The notes below the pieces were generated by a model. It ran no database searches and was not told where the DNA came from. It saw nothing but the letters and a program-made list of their open reading frames with translations. Positions 14,053-50,584 of a stretch of DNA of 64,000 nt are shown piece by piece. The stretch's first letter is position 1. Each line of letters begins with the position of its first letter. A program made the translations under genes and the position numbers. This DNA comes from a virus, in IMG/VR virus record IMGVR_UViG_3300026292_000602, positions 17,968 through 81,967 of that record, one strand, 5' to 3'.

Positions 14053-14126
14053 GCGGGTGTAGTATAATGGTATTATGACAGCCTTCCAAGCTGATGATAG
14101 GGGTTCGATTCCCCTCACCCGCTCCA
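14053..14126 (+). tRNA. tRNA-Gly(TCC)
   Basis: GCGGGTG...anticodon loop CT-TCC-AA...GGTTCGATT...CACCCGC-T-CCA; a TTGACG-N17-TAATAT promoter lies upstream at 14004. Confidence 0.95.
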
Positions 14127-14134
14127 TATCCTTT

Positions 14135-14211
14135 GGCAGAGTAGCTCAGGTGGTTAGAGCACCGGACTCATAAGCCGGGGGTCGCAGGTTCGAATCCTGC
14201 CTCTGCTACCA
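14135..14211 (+). tRNA. tRNA-CAT (most likely elongator Met; Ile2 not excluded)
   Basis: GGCAGAG...CT-CAT-AA...GGTTCGAATCC...CTCTGCT-A-CCA. Confidence 0.9.
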
Positions 14212-14213
14212 AT

Positions 14214-14287
14214 GTTACCGTGACAGAGTGGTTATGTAGAGGATTGCAAATCCTTGTACGGTGGTTCGATTCCGCCCGGTAACTCCA
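14214..14287 (+). tRNA. tRNA-Cys(GCA)
   Basis: GTTACCG...TT-GCA-AA...GGTTCGATTCC...CGGTAAC-T-CCA. Confidence 0.95.
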
Positions 14288-17918: not shown

Positions 17919-18881
17919 TTAATGAAGTCCGTTTGGAACTATTATATAATGTATTGCTAAAACTATTCCTACTGAAGCACCTAAGCCAATCATCATCTTA
18001 AAGAAGTCTTTTGCAATAAAAGGAAACACACCTTTGAACTTTGTTTTGTCTGTAAATGTAGCAATAGCAAGTTCACGTCCTGTTAACAATCCTACAAAGA
18101 CCCAAGTAGTTGACATAGGTATATCGTTAATCTCTTTAAAGAATAAAAGTATTACAAAGTAAAACAAGTCTATAAGACAAGCACTTCTAACATATCTTGT
18201 ATTGTGTTTCTCTATGACTATCTGTTGTATCTTACCGCCACGTTCTCTAAACATATAACCTAGCCCTAGTACAAATATTAATGATACCATTATCATCATA
18301 TCTATAGGAACTTGTCTAGGTAGGTAAACTGCTATGTTGGCCATGTCATGACTTAACCAAGTCCACCACAATACTCCTGTGGTAATCCATTGTCCTACTC
18401 GCCAATATGCTTTATGACTTTCTTTAACTGAAGCAGACTCGTCCATCACTTTAGTAATACCGTACCATATAGCATAAGCTGATACACCTGCTACTGCATA
18501 ACCCATCATGCTTTTCATAAGCATCTTCTCTAATACAAATGTACTAGCGAAAGCACTTAATACTAAAAATGATGTACTTACTGGAACGCCTAGTCTTGTT
18601 AATATTAATAGTAGTCCTGGAGCGGCCGCATGATACCATTGTACTTCCTGCCACGGTATCCTGTTCAGTCGTCCATATGAAATATCCCCTCCATTAGTAT
18701 ACCAACCATACCATAGAGCCCATAGCAGGACAGCACTTGCGGCTCCCCACATGATTTTCCAGTCATATCGTTCATTGTTGGATGCAATCCACGTACCTAG
18801 GGTTTGTACGGAATCGTTTGCGATGACGGAGTAGGCCGCGAATAAAAAGCCTATGGCCATCCATAGTGTTAATACTTCCAC
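17919..18881 (-). CDS. PiT-like (phosphate/sulfate permease) membrane transporter
   Basis: About 9 TM helices with internally repeated IANDSVQ/SHDMANI and PVSTS/PMSTT motifs resembling PHO4/PiT signatures. Confidence 0.6.
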   Translation of the reverse strand: MEVLTLWMAIGFLFAAYSVIANDSVQTLGTWIASNNERYDWKIMWGAASAVLLWALWYGWYTNGGDISYGRLNRIPWQEVQWYHAAAPGLLLILTRLGVPVSTSFLVLSAFASTFVLEKMLMKSMMGYAVAGVSAYAIWYGITKVMDESASVKESHKAYWRVGQWITTGVLWWTWLSHDMANIAVYLPRQVPIDMMIMVSLIFVLGLGYMFRERGGKIQQIVIEKHNTRYVRSACLIDLFYFVILLFFKEINDIPMSTTWVFVGLLTGRELAIATFTDKTKFKGVFPFIAKDFFKMMIGLGASVGIVLAIHYIIVPNGLH

Positions 18882-19141
18882 ATATACTCCTGTCTGAAGT
18901 TCGTATTCAAATATTAATTTACACTCTTATTTACGTAAAGTCAAGAAAAGTTTTGTTGCAGTTTGATTACAATGTTGCCAAAAGTCATTAGTTACAAATT
19001 TGCAATTCAGAGTTGCAAAAAAAGTGTAGCTTATTTGCTCAACTAACGCACAGATTTTATACGCAGATTATAAATAGCTATGTCGACGCAAGAGCTTGTC
19101 AAGTTTTTCCGATGACACACATACACACTGGGATTGACCAG

Positions 19142-19240
19142 GGAGTTGAGAGCACTCCTAAAATAGCAAATGACGATGTCCAAAGTGACATTGACGGTGG
19201 AAAAGACCACTGACGCCTAGAAAAGACTAGGGGTATTGCT
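19142..19240 (+). ncRNA. Candidate structured 5' leader RNA with three modular hairpins
   Basis: TGACG-ATGTC-CAAAGT-GACAT, TGACG-GTGG-AAAAGA-CCAC and TGACG-CCTAG-AAAAGA-CTAGG, closed by AGCAA/TTGCT and preceded by a GGAGT/ACTCC hairpin. Confidence 0.65.
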
Positions 19241-19272
19241 TTCCTTAAGCATCCATGATATAGGAGATAAAA

Positions 19273-19473
19273 ATGTCACACTTTTGGAGTGGCCTTGTGT
19301 CTTGGATGAATCACAAGTCTGTGAGTAATAGACGAAGTGAAGAGTTTGAGAAATGGGCCAAAACTGAATATAAGAACGATTGGTACTATGCATATAATCA
19401 TATGTTAGCCACCAATGGTAAACCACCCAAAACTACACTTGAACTTAGAAAGGATTATGTCAAATGCTTATAA
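19273..19473 (+). CDS. Small hypothetical protein
   Basis: Strong AGGAG RBS; WAKTEY..DW.YAY motif. Confidence 0.75.
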   Translation: MSHFWSGLVSWMNHKSVSNRRSEEFEKWAKTEYKNDWYYAYNHMLATNGKPPKTTLELRKDYVKCL

Positions 19474-19715
19474 TTAGACGTATAGTAAACTTTTGTGAGA
19501 TAGTAGGCTACGCCAGAGCGGCTAGTGAATTATCACGCCAAGGGTTTCATGATGAAGCTAAACACTTATTAATTAAGAAACTTGAGCTTCAAACTAAAAA
19601 AGAAACAGCGATTGTACGTTTAGAGAAGTTAAAAGCTATTAAGCGAAGTTATGATCCTTCAAAACATTATTTGAGAGGCAAACAAGTTGCTTTTTGGAAA
19701 GGTAAGGCGGCGTAA
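19464..19715 (+). CDS. Small hypothetical protein
   Basis: GYARAASELSRQGF; overlaps the upstream ORF. Confidence 0.7.
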   Translation: MLIIRRIVNFCEIVGYARAASELSRQGFHDEAKHLLIKKLELQTKKETAIVRLEKLKAIKRSYDPSKHYLRGKQVAFWKGKAA

Positions 19716-19716
19716 T

Positions 19717-19770
19717 ATGTGGCCTTATACTAACGAAGAAGCCGAATGGCTATCAGGTAAGAAAAAATAA
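19717..19770 (+). CDS. 17-aa peptide MWPYTNEEAEWLSGKKK
   Basis: ATG one base after the previous stop, ending just before the terminator. Confidence 0.45.
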   Translation: MWPYTNEEAEWLSGKKK

Positions 19771-19791
19771 ATTTATTTGTGTAAATTGAAT

Positions 19792-19823
19792 ATAGGGCAG
19801 TAGAAATACTGCCCTATTTTTTT
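19792..19823 (+). terminator. Rho-independent terminator
   Basis: ATAGGGCAGTA-GAAA-TACTGCCCTAT-TTTTT. Confidence 0.85.
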
Positions 19824-19830
19824 GATTAGA

Positions 19831-19941
19831 TTATTGTGCTACTTCTGGAGCAGGTTGACCTGTCCACATAGTATATCCGAATATAATTACAACTACTGCA
19901 ACTGCTATCCAGAACTTTTTTGATTTCATCATGTCTTTCAT
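19831..19941 (-). CDS. 36-aa single-TM protein
   Basis: Manual translation MKDMMKSKKFWIAVAVVVIIFGYTMWTGQPAPEVAQ* with a GGGGA RBS. Confidence 0.55.
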   Translation of the reverse strand: MKDMMKSKKFWIAVAVVVIIFGYTMWTGQPAPEVAQ

Positions 19942-30592: not shown

Positions 30593-30666
30593 GGGGGAGT
30601 GGTATAATGGTATTACACGGGTCTCCAAAACCCTAGATCAAGGTTCGATTCCTTGCTCCTCTGCCA
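30593..30666 (+). tRNA. tRNA-Trp(CCA)
   Basis: GGGGGAG...CT-CCA-AA...GGTTCGATTCC...CTCCTCT-G-CCA. Confidence 0.9.
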
Positions 30667-44912: not shown

Positions 44913-44997
44913 GCTCCCATGATGGAATAGGTAGACATAACAGACTTAAAATCTGTGGCCAATTGGCGTCCCGGTTCGAGTCCGGGTGGGAGTACCA
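44913..44997 (+). tRNA. tRNA-Leu(TAA)
   Basis: GCTCCCA...CT-TAA-AA, long variable arm, GGTTCGAGTCC...TGGGAGT-A-CCA. Confidence 0.95.
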
Positions 44998-45008
44998 ACC
45001 TTTGATAT

Positions 45009-45085
45009 CTACCCGTAGCTCAGCAGGATAGAGCAACGGTCTTCTAAACCGTGGGTCGGGGGTTCGAATCCCTCCGGGTAGGCCA
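45009..45085 (+). tRNA. tRNA-Arg(TCT)
   Basis: CTACCCG...CT-TCT-AA...GGTTCGAATCC...CGGGTAG-G-CCA. Confidence 0.95.
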
Positions 45086-50218: not shown

Positions 50219-50584
50219 TTATTTTAAGCTAACAGTTCCGCCAGCTTCTTCTAGTTTCTTTTTAACTTCTTCTGCTTTTTCTTTATCAGCGTCTTCAACT
50301 ACAGGCTTAGGTAATGCTTCAACAAAAGTCTTTGCCTCCATTAAACCTAATCCCATTATTTCTTTAACTGCTTTAAGCACGTTAATCTTCTTTTCGCCAA
50401 AGCCTTCAAGCACAACTGTTGCTGTTGCTTTTTCTTCTGCTACTGCACCTGCTACTGCTGGTGCTCCTGCAACCATGTTGTCCAAATCAATGTTCCACTC
50501 TTTAGCTAATCTTTTTGATAGCTCTAAGGCTTCCATTACGTTTAGTTGACCTAAGTCTTTAACTAATGATTCTAATTTTTCCAT
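50219..50584 (-). CDS. rplL: Ribosomal protein L7/L12 (bL12)
   Basis: [16 protein letters not shown], Ala-rich hinge, [26 protein letters not shown]...[21 protein letters not shown]. Confidence 0.95.

What the first reader, a model, noticed from the sequence alone, without database searches (positions are those of the whole stretch)
19142..19240. Modular three-hairpin RNA leader with internal covariation
Seen: three consecutive units, each UGACG + stem + (C/A)AAAG(U/A) loop + complementary stem. The stems differ completely (AUGUC/GACAU, GUGG/CCAC, CCUAG/CUAGG) yet all pair, while linker and loop are conserved. The array is closed by AGCAA/UUGCU, lies downstream of a TATAAATA promoter (19069) and about 20 nt before the RBS of a three-small-protein operon with its own terminator. 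I do not recognise it as a known RNA family. Inference: a multivalent protein-binding RNA (sponge or autoregulatory operator, possibly an antitoxin-like repeat RNA) or a new cis-regulator paired with the small proteins.
Basis: partly seen in the sequence, partly recalled or inferred. Interest (0 to 1): 0.78.

Follow-up and report, generated by a model that had tools for sequence, protein, structure and literature searches.

The report
Modular hairpin leader RNA of phages
The three hairpins are real and are part of a larger, previously undescribed structured RNA leader that uncultured marine phages place in front of a late operon of very small proteins; it most likely controls that operon, but what binds it is unknown.

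Summary
Observation confirmed and enlarged. The window lies in an uncultured marine phage contig (IMG/VR; complete relatives are 328-343 kb). Positions 19082-19272 (+) are the 5' leader of a three-ORF operon.

About 80 distinct relatives carry the same architecture with 1-6 modules, one copy per genome. Stems covary strongly: 96.9% of cells paired against 78% in shuffles, and 30 of 34 pairs change on both sides. Conserved G.U pairs fix the strand. No Rfam family matches.

Metatranscriptome contigs from three studies cover 19082-19792 only, starting 6 nt after TATAAATA.

The operon is conserved: an unnamed 'WAKTEY' protein, then DUF3563 or DUF1127, an 'ARAAxELxRQGYH' protein and an MWPYT peptide. 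One small alphaproteobacterial genome has the WAKTEY-DUF3563 pair without the leader.

Best reading (about 0.45): a cis-acting translational control leader, with repeated hairpins as a multivalent protein platform coupled to a UUGCU switch beside the SD. The binding partner is untested. The closest analogue is the cuckoo/CcsR-DUF1127 locus, but this RNA is not a member of it. The antitoxin reading is not supported.

The parts
19069..19076 (+). TATAAATA box, read as a T4-type late-promoter -10 element
   Evidence: Present in the window. An exact TATAAATA lies upstream of 61 of 84 distinct leaders. An RNA-library contig starts at 19082, the sixth base after the box. The promoter class itself is inferred from textbook T4 biology.
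19082..19116 (+). 5'-terminal hairpin of the transcript (GUCG.CG.AAGAGCUU...AAGUUUUU.CG.UGAC)
   Evidence: Predicted in the window and in relatives. Other subfamilies have a different hairpin at the same place, directly after TATAAATA.
19117..19127 (+). CA-rich spacer (ACACACAUACA)
   Evidence: Conserved as CACACAUAGACAC or similar in most leaders. It is also present in leaders that lack the hairpin array.
19128..19141 (+). Module M1: CUGG-GAUUGA-CCAG (GAAAGA loop in most relatives)
   Evidence: All 4 pairs change on both sides; 96% of cells paired (helix 1).
19142..19158 (+). P2, a variable hairpin: GGAGU-UGAGAGC-ACUCC
   Evidence: All 5 pairs change on both sides, for example to GGCAU/AUGCC (helix 2).
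19159..19170 (+). Linker with AGCAA (19165-69); family consensus UUACAAGYRRU
   Evidence: It can pair with (A)UUGCU(U) over 5-8 bp in 60 of 76 leaders, mean 5.7 against 4.4 for shuffles. Changes are on one side only.
19174..19193 (+). Module H1: CG-AUGUC-CAAAGU-GACAU-UG
   Evidence: Helices 3-4; U-A to C-G change. This module is absent in many relatives.
19195..19212 (+). Module H2: CG-GUGG-AAAAGA-CCAC-UG
   Evidence: Helix 5. Conserved G.U at the base (GU 33, AU 17, GC 6). GUGG/CCAC changes to GUAG/CUAC or AUGG/CCAU.
19213..19234 (+). Module H3, the last and universal one: AC-G-CCUAG-AAAAGA-CUAGG-G-GU, with a purine-G mismatch
   Evidence: Helices 6-7: 99.5% paired, with more than 10 different inner stems.
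19232..19254 (+). Invariant 3' element GGUAUUGCUUUCCUUAAGCAUCC. It holds the hairpin UGCUU-UCCUU-AAGCA (19237-51), whose loop resembles an anti-SD sequence.
   Evidence: 19 invariant columns in 63 sequences. The stem never varies (helix 8). In models, the SD pairs with the loop or with the following UCC.
19262..19275 (+). SD AGGAG (19262-66) and start codon (19273-75) of ORF1
19273..19473 (+). ORF1, 66 aa, the 'WAKTEY' family (no Pfam, PHROG or NCBIfam match)
   Evidence: It is the first gene after the leader in 65 of 75 loci. AlphaFold2 gives two helices, pLDDT 71.
19464..19715 (+). ORF2, 83 aa: an 'ARAAxELxRQGYH' domain plus a C-terminal YDPSKHYLRGK motif
   Evidence: The two halves occur as separate small ORFs in other loci.
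19717..19770 (+). ORF3, 17 aa: MWPYTNEEAEWLSGKKK
   Evidence: An MWPY peptide is found in 49 of 75 operons.
19792..19824 (+). Intrinsic terminator of the operon
   Evidence: 11-bp stem followed by TTTTTTT. RNA contigs end at 19758 and 19792.

Best explanation
Positions 19082-19272 are a cis-acting structured 5' leader of a late phage operon of small proteins.

Shown:
- The RNA folds into a 5' hairpin, then a row of 1-6 near-identical hairpin modules: a C-G and G.U base, a 4-5 bp free-varying stem, and an N-AAAG-A loop.
- One invariant 3' hairpin lies about 10-20 nt before the SD.
- The RNA occurs once per genome and, in every genuine instance inspected, directly upstream of a small ORF of this operon type.
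- It is present in environmental RNA libraries.

Inferred:
- The repeated modules are a multivalent platform for several copies (or an oligomer) of one RNA-binding protein.
- Occupancy of the platform shifts a switch. The invariant UUGCU(U) pairs either with the upstream linker AAGYRRU, which closes the hairpin junction and frees the CCU-rich segment to pair with the SD, or with the downstream AAGCA, which forms the local hairpin and leaves the SD more open.
- The output would be translation of ORF1, and by coupling the rest of the operon.
- The binding protein is not identified. An operon product (a feedback loop) or another phage or host RNA-binding protein are the candidates.
For: - Structure: 96.9% of cells paired against 78.1% in shuffles and 27-49% when partners are slid. 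30 of 34 pairs change on both sides. A structure-blind MAFFT alignment of 13 close relatives gives 99.1% paired and 10 pairs changed on both sides.
- Strand: the conserved G.U pairs work only on the + strand.
- Repetition: the loop is the same in all modules (AAAAGA 59, GAAAGA 31, CAAAGA 28 occurrences). Copy number is 1-6, including an exact tandem duplicate in L127.
- Cis linkage: the model finds one hit per locus and per genome, including two complete genomes. The genuine hits listed sit 20-35 nt, rarely about 80 nt, before a small ORF of the conserved operon. No similar hairpins of significance occur elsewhere in the 82-kb contig.
- Switch: the linker pairs with UAUUGCUU over 5-8 bp in 60 of 76 leaders. 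Where the linker was correctly assigned, the two conformers differ by only about 1-2 kcal/mol. The modelled SD is more paired in the closed form in 33 leaders, against 2 the other way. The SD's modelled partners are the CCU loop or the following UCC.
- Transcription: RNA-library contigs from 3 studies cover 19082-19792 and nothing in 18700-19081. They include a variant carrying the compensatory changes.
Against: - No binding partner is identified.
- The operon proteins occur without this leader in some phages and in one alphaproteobacterial genome. A protein-specific feedback operator is therefore not obligatory.
- The closing helix and the 3' hairpin have no covariation, because the shared strand is invariant. 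The switch rests on conservation and thermodynamic models only.
- For the window itself the model favours the 3'-hairpin form (-61.9 against -58.3 kcal/mol), and the SD is largely paired in both forms.
- A few family members have a long spacer or an extra hairpin between the 3' element and the SD (L104, L143, L145, L203). This does not fit simple SD occlusion.
- Contig depth hints that the leader may be more abundant than the coding part. That would fit a stable separate RNA, but contig depth cannot rank parts of a transcript.
Confidence: 0.45

Rival explanations
1. The leader is processed from the mRNA into a stable trans-acting RNA. It would act either as a sponge that captures a host or phage RNA-binding protein on its repeated hairpins, or as an sRNA whose C/U-rich 3' loop pairs with SD sequences. 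This would be analogous to the cuckoo/CcsR RNAs that are co-transcribed with DUF1127 genes.
For: - It is a multi-hairpin RNA with identical loops.
- The invariant loop NNCCUNA resembles an anti-SD sequence.
- DUF1127 ORFs are present in 20 of 75 operons. CcaF1 (DUF1127) binds RNA, and CcsR RNAs lie in the 5' or 3' UTR of DUF1127 genes (PMC8034643).
- Leader contigs have higher word depth than coding-region contigs in two RNA runs. This is only a weak hint.
- An A/U-rich single strand follows the 3' hairpin.
Against: - There is no terminator between leader and ORF in most members.
- The fixed short distance to the SD argues for a cis role.
- The window's own operon has no DUF1127 gene.
- Contig depth cannot rank parts of a transcript (warning).
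- No processing site is shown.
Confidence: 0.2
2. The leader is a passive element with no specific ligand. The 5' hairpin and the compact hairpin row protect the late mRNA from 5'-end-dependent decay, or hold the ribosome-binding site in a favourable context.
For: - A 5'-terminal hairpin directly after the predicted start is present in all subfamilies.
- Leaders that lack the array keep the 5' hairpin and the CA-rich spacer.
- The number of modules is free to vary.
Against: Simple stabilisers do not need invariant loop sequences, a conserved G.U and purine-G mismatch at each stem base, or a 20-nt invariant 3' element.
Confidence: 0.15
3. It is a riboswitch, sensing a small molecule or ion at the multi-helix junction, with the UUGCU alternative pairing as its expression platform.
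For: - Conserved unpaired nucleotides at the junction (UUACAAG, GGUAU).
- Two near-isoenergetic conformers that differ in SD access.
- The hosts are likely SAR11-type bacteria, which are described as relying on riboswitches (PMC7029224).
Against: - A variable number (1-6) of repeated identical modules, including recent tandem duplication, is not how known ligand pockets are built.
- The minimal members keep only one module plus the 3' hairpin (L150, L212, L214).
- The operon gives no metabolic clue to a ligand.
Confidence: 0.1
4. It is a type III toxin-antitoxin-like repeat RNA.
For: Tandem units of about 20 nt sit next to small ORFs.
Against: - The units differ in stem sequence and are hairpins, not identical processed repeats.
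- The neighbouring proteins give no Pfam or PADLOC hit to ToxN/AbiE-type or any defence family.
- The element is expressed from a late-promoter-like box in a lytic-type phage genome.
Confidence: 0.02

Closest known systems
Cuckoo / CcsR sRNAs of CIN1 loci with the DUF1127 protein CcaF1 (Alphaproteobacteria; PMC8034643)
   Same: Both are tandem hairpin RNAs co-transcribed, in the 5' or 3' UTR, with genes for very small proteins of the DUF1127 type. Both have a C/U-rich, anti-SD-like hairpin loop. Both have an alphaproteobacterial connection: here, alpha-type tmRNA genes in related phage contigs and a host WAKTEY-DUF3563 pair.
   Different: Cuckoo loops are CCUCCUCCC in every hairpin. Here the repeated loops are purine-only NAAAGA, and only the last hairpin is C/U-rich. 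There is no Rfam match. This RNA is phage-borne. Its first gene is the unnamed WAKTEY family; DUF1127 is present in only about a quarter of operons and not in the window.
Csr/Rsm sponge RNAs (CsrB/C, RsmY/Z) and CsrA-bound leaders
   Same: Both have a variable number of hairpins that each present the same short loop motif. In CsrA-bound leaders, one site lies near the SD.
   Different: The GGA loop motif is absent. The only CsrC-like hit is sub-threshold and lies on the terminator, not the leader. This RNA is a 5' leader, not a free-standing sRNA. No CsrA link is known.
Phage translational operators (T4 gene 32 pseudoknot, gp43 hairpin, RegA sites) and lambda boxB/N
   Same: Both are phage mRNA leader structures bound by a phage protein to set translation or transcription. 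boxB also has a purine-rich loop.
   Different: Those are single sites, each tied to a known protein. Here there is a multi-copy module array, an unknown partner, and 6-nt loops that are not GNRA-like in most modules (the first loop base is A or C).
Guanidine-II (mini-ykkC) riboswitch
   Same: Both have two or more similar small hairpins in tandem upstream of an SD.
   Different: Guanidine-II has ACGR tetraloops that kiss. The purine-only loops here cannot pair with each other, and their copy number is variable.
ToxI-type antitoxin RNA
   Same: Both are tandem short units.
   Different: ToxI consists of identical direct repeats processed by an adjacent ToxN. Neither feature is present here.

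Membership tests
Any Rfam 15 family | Covariance-model score at or above the family's gathering threshold | tested here: not met
   No hit on the leader at gathering score in the window or in 16 diverse related loci. At E up to 10, no hit lies over the hairpin array or the 3' hairpin. Only two chance-level matches reach the 3' end of the leader: Flavi_CRE 19217-19320 and Mu-gpT-DE 19243-19275.
Cuckoo / CcsR (CIN1) | Each hairpin loop carries CCUCCUCCC | tested here: not met
   The repeated loops are AAAAGA, GAAAGA or CAAAGA. Only the 3' hairpin loop is C/U-rich (NNCCUNA).
Cuckoo / CcsR (CIN1) | Adjacent to, and co-transcribed with, a DUF1127 ORF | tested here: inconclusive
   A DUF1127 ORF (PF06568, E = 1.4e-11) is present in 20 of 75 operons. 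The window's operon has none.
Csr/Rsm sponge or CsrA leader | GGA (A(N)GGA) in the hairpin loops | tested here: not met
   The loop census shows no GGA-centred loops. The CsrC hit has 20 bits against a 61-bit gathering score and lies at 19682-19831.
Type III toxin-antitoxin (ToxIN-like) | Identical direct repeats plus an adjacent ToxN-type endoribonuclease | tested here: not met
   The units have different stems. The neighbours give no PADLOC or Pfam hit to such proteins.
Riboswitch (generic) | A ligand-binding aptamer with a fixed architecture and ligand-dependent switching | not testable with these tools
   The architecture is not fixed: 1-6 modules. Alternative pairing is plausible. Ligand binding needs a bench test.
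Guanidine-II riboswitch | Two hairpins with ACGR loops | tested here: not met
   Loop census; no Rfam mini-ykkC hit.
T4-type late transcript | TATAAATA at about -10 and a gp55-type late sigma factor in the genome | tested here: inconclusive
   The box is present in 61 of 84 leaders, and an RNA contig starts 6 nt after it. TATAAATA is not enriched in the window as a whole: 7 found against 9 expected. No gp55 homologue was searched for. The window's replication genes are DnaB/primase-type.

The most novel reading that the evidence does not exclude
The cassette is a phage-borne counterpart of the alphaproteobacterial cuckoo/CcaF1 riboregulatory module. The leader would be cut off the late mRNA and accumulate as a multivalent decoy RNA that captures a host RNA-binding protein (or host SD sequences, through its C/U-rich loop). 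The co-encoded host-derived small proteins (WAKTEY, DUF3563/DUF1127, ARAA, MWPYT) would rewire host stress or phosphate signalling. Hairpin copy number would be tuned by tandem duplication as a dosage control.
Probability: 0.15. Interest if true: 0.85.

Novelty: new variant of a known kind. Interest (0 to 1): 0.66.

Why it matters
- It is a well-supported new structured RNA family in abundant, uncultured marine phages with genomes up to 343 kb, probably of SAR11-like Alphaproteobacteria. A published survey of pelagimyophages found no regulatory RNAs in that group (PMC7029224).
- Its grammar is unusually clean: a fixed loop and stem base, a freely varying stem, and a copy number of 1-6. That makes it a tractable natural model for multivalent RNA recognition.
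- It gives an experimental handle on five families of very small proteins whose roles are unknown or barely known: WAKTEY, DUF3563, DUF1127, ARAA and MWPYT.
- It also shows a phage adding its own RNA control layer to a gene pair that one small alphaproteobacterial genome carries without it.

Tried and rejected
- GenBank phages (INPHARED): no match to the region, the leader or two WAKTEY proteins.
- Bacterial and archaeal genomes: the invariant 3' pattern gave about the number of hits I would expect by chance. Of the 80 loci listed, only one (L293, a 12.5-kb MAG contig with the same small-protein operon) is a true instance by model R1.
- R1 found nothing in 151 sampled alphaproteobacterial genomes. 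This means 'not found in those searched', not 'absent'.
- NAAAGA-loop hairpins elsewhere in the 82-kb contig: 17 found against about 7 expected. The two most convincing ones, which I inspected, lie inside coding regions (an IMP-dehydrogenase/GMP-reductase-like gene by eye, and bL12); the others have short A/T-rich stems. I rejected them as further sites.
- A loop-loop or loop-3'-element pseudoknot (GAAAG with CUUUC): by eye, the variable positions of the 3' loop do not covary with the invariant module loops. Rejected.
- Pairing of H1's 3' arm with the start codon, which is in the window's MFE fold: not conserved in relatives. Treated as incidental.
- The automatic choice of the closing-helix partner picked wrong segments in many sequences. 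I used only the correctly assigned cases for the energy comparison.
- ESM Atlas gave no usable neighbour for the 66-aa protein. The AlphaFold2 model is a two-helix hairpin, too simple for a fold search, so none was run.
- The supplements of the viral csRNA catalogue (PMC10690425) are not held. I could not check whether this motif is among its more than 10,000 unnamed candidates.
- No complex-prediction job was sent, because no protein-protein claim is made.

Full report
**What is in the window.** AGCAA is followed by three units of UGACG + stem + (C/A)AAAG(U/A) + complementary stem, then GGUA-UUGCU. A TATAAATA box lies at 19069-76. The SD AGGAG is at 19262-66 and the ATG at 19273. Three small ORFs follow: 19273-19473, 19464-19715 and 19717-19770. 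A strong intrinsic terminator lies at 19792-19817. The unit pattern occurs twice, against 0.00 expected in shuffles. The region folds better than shuffles, z = -3.1. No Rfam family matches at gathering score. At E up to 10 nothing lies over the hairpin array; only two chance-level matches touch the leader's 3' end.

**Where the window comes from.** It is part of an 82-kb IMG/VR viral record estimated 23% complete. Relatives carrying the same element include two complete genomes with terminal repeats, of 343 and 328 kb. The window also encodes AlkB-like, ALA-synthase-like, DnaB/primase and ribosomal bL12 genes. No GenBank phage has the region, the leader or the first ORF.

**The element is a family.**
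- Homologues of the 66-aa ORF led to more than 110 loci in viral and metagenome contigs.
- Nearly all of these show the same leader. The order is: TATAAATA; a 5' hairpin; a CA-rich spacer; a first module (CUGG-GAAAGA-CCAG type); a variable hairpin P2; a linker UUACAAGYRRU; 0-3 or more further modules; a last module; then GGUAUUGCU-NN-CCU-N-AAGCA(UCC); about 10-20 nt; and the SD.
- I counted 84 distinct leaders with 1-6 modules. The loops are AAAAGA (59), GAAAGA (31) and CAAAGA (28), plus minor variants. TATAAATA is present in 61 of 84.
- L127 carries two identical adjacent modules, which points to a recent tandem duplication.

**Structure is supported by covariation.** I built a covariance model from 13 window-type sequences. 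It found one match per locus in 80 of 95 loci searched, with no second genuine match in any locus.
- On the resulting alignment, 96.9% of cells form standard pairs. Column shuffles give 78.1%, and sliding the partners gives 27-49%.
- 30 of 34 pairs change on both sides. There are 363 such cells, against 84 in shuffles.
- That alignment is fitted to the model. However, the structure-blind MAFFT alignment of the 13 seeds gives the same answer: 99.1% paired and 10 pairs with double changes.
- The last module alone shows more than ten different inner stems, including CCUAG, CCCUG, CCGAG, CCAGG, CCGG, CUGAG, CCGUG, CCAUG, GCGG and CUGG.
- The 'linker' UGACG is really the stem base. C-G and a conserved G.U (GU 33, AU 17, GC 6) close each module, and a single A separates modules.
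- The last module has A-U, C-G and then a purine-G mismatch. The conserved G.U pairs mean the RNA is read from the + strand.
- The 3' hairpin UGCUU/AAGCA never varies, so covariation says nothing about it. A divergent pair of loci (L093, L101) has GGAUG-CUUUCCCAAAAA-CAUCC at that place: a different stem showing the same CUUUCC loop.

**It is transcribed.** Four metatranscriptome runs from three studies hold contigs that cover 19082-19259 and 19230-19792. Nothing covers the 380 nt upstream (18700-19081), where a gene lies on the other strand. That argues against DNA carry-over. The most 5' contig starts at 19082, the sixth base after TATAAATA, where a T4-type late transcript would start (textbook knowledge, from memory). 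One RNA contig carries the L003-type variant with both arms of H2 and H3 changed together. Contigs cannot prove ends or relative levels, so the higher depth of the leader contigs is only a hint.

**Genomic logic.** There is one copy per genome, in the window's own contig and in five large relatives. Other NAAAGA hairpins in the contig are either inside coding regions or short and A/T-rich.

The operon behind the leader is conserved:
- A 'WAKTEY' protein is the first gene in 65 of 75 loci. It has no family in Pfam, PHROGs or NCBIfam, and it models as a two-helix hairpin.
- Next comes DUF3563 (PF12086) or DUF1127 (PF06568).
- Then an 'ARAAxELxRQGYH' protein. The window's ORF2 is this domain fused to a YDPSKHYLRGK tail.
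- Often there is a small membrane peptide.
- Then an MWPYTxEE peptide, which is the window's ORF3.
- Sometimes there is a cupredoxin.

In a few loci the leader precedes a DUF1127, a DUF3563 or the YEPxxHYM peptide directly. More distant operons of the same proteins have other leaders that keep the 5' hairpin and CA-rich spacer but lack the array.

Among 301 sampled alphaproteobacterial genomes, one of 1.4 Mb has a WAKTEY-DUF3563 pair between host transporter genes. It has a short plain leader. The RNA model found nothing in 151 sampled alphaproteobacterial genomes. Only one phage-like MAG contig was a true hit among the genome hits of the 3' pattern. Two related phage contigs encode alpha-type two-piece tmRNA. 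Together these point to alphaproteobacterial, probably SAR11-like, hosts. They also suggest that the RNA is a phage-side addition to a host-type small-protein cassette. Both points are inferences.

**How it probably works.**
- The repeated unit has an invariant loop, an invariant stem base and a free stem. Its copy number varies, and minimal members keep only one module plus the 3' hairpin. This fits repeated recognition by one protein better than a single ligand pocket.
- The invariant UUGCU(U) can pair with two nearly identical segments. One is the upstream linker AAGYRRU: 5-8 bp in 60 of 76 leaders, AGCAA in the window. The other is the downstream AAGCA.
- Where the linker was correctly assigned, the two forms are within about 1-2 kcal/mol. 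The modelled SD is more paired in the closed form in 33 leaders, against 2 the other way.
- The SD's modelled partners are the CCU loop or the UCC after the hairpin.
- I therefore favour a protein-operated translational switch. This is inference. The window's own model is not clear-cut, and a few members have long spacers before the SD.

**Rivals.** They are a processed trans-acting decoy or sRNA (the cuckoo/CcsR-CcaF1 precedent, PMC8034643), a passive stabiliser, and a riboswitch. The ToxI-like idea fails on repeat type and on the absence of any toxin-like neighbour.

**Novelty.** No described family fits. The nearest analogue is the cuckoo/DUF1127 arrangement, and its defining loop motif is not met. 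A catalogue of more than 10,000 unnamed viral structured-RNA candidates exists (PMC10690425). It may already list this motif, but I could not check. A pelagimyophage survey found no regulatory RNAs with a riboswitch scanner (PMC7029224).

Noticed in passing
window 50219-50584 (-): The phage encodes a ribosomal protein bL12 (L7/L12), with both Pfam domains (PF00542 at 1.9e-25, PF16320 at 3.9e-09).
   Followed up: partly
L364:1435-1796 (a 1.4-Mb alphaproteobacterial genome, G036): A chromosomal WAKTEY-like ORF is followed directly by a DUF3563 ORF (PF12086, 1e-07). The pair lies between LysE-type transporter genes (transporter type judged by eye, not scanned) and has no hairpin leader. It is probably the host-side counterpart of the phage cassette.
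   Followed up: partly
L136:4102-4404 (-) and L123:12888-13275 (+): Related phage contigs carry an alphaproteobacterial two-piece (permuted) tmRNA gene (RF01849, RF04321). This is a clue to the host class.
   Followed up: no
L127:12128-12269: Two identical adjacent modules (UGACG-GUAG-CAAAGA-CUAC, twice) point to a recent tandem duplication of a hairpin unit.
   Followed up: no
L093 and L101, leader upstream of the WAKTEY ORF: A divergent version of the leader has other internal hairpins. Its 3' hairpin has a different stem (GGAUG/CAUCC) but the same CUUUCC loop. Model R1 did not detect L093 (L101 was not searched).
   Followed up: partly
L136, L147, L149, L221 and others, about 0.7-1.2 kb downstream of the leader: A 144-aa cupredoxin (PF00127, pseudoazurin-like) sits inside or just after the small-protein operon in about 10 of 75 loci.
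   Followed up: no
window 14053-14284, 30593-30663, 44913-45082 (+): Six tRNA genes lie in three places, which is typical of large phages.
   Followed up: no
C-termini of WAKTEY, DUF3563 and DUF1127 proteins in many loci (e.g. L046, L028, L120): Small proteins of unrelated families in the operon share the C-terminal ending N-L-(K/R)-G-W-V. Other WAKTEY members end in KEVA or G-V-(Y/T)-x. I have no explanation for this shared tail.
   Followed up: no
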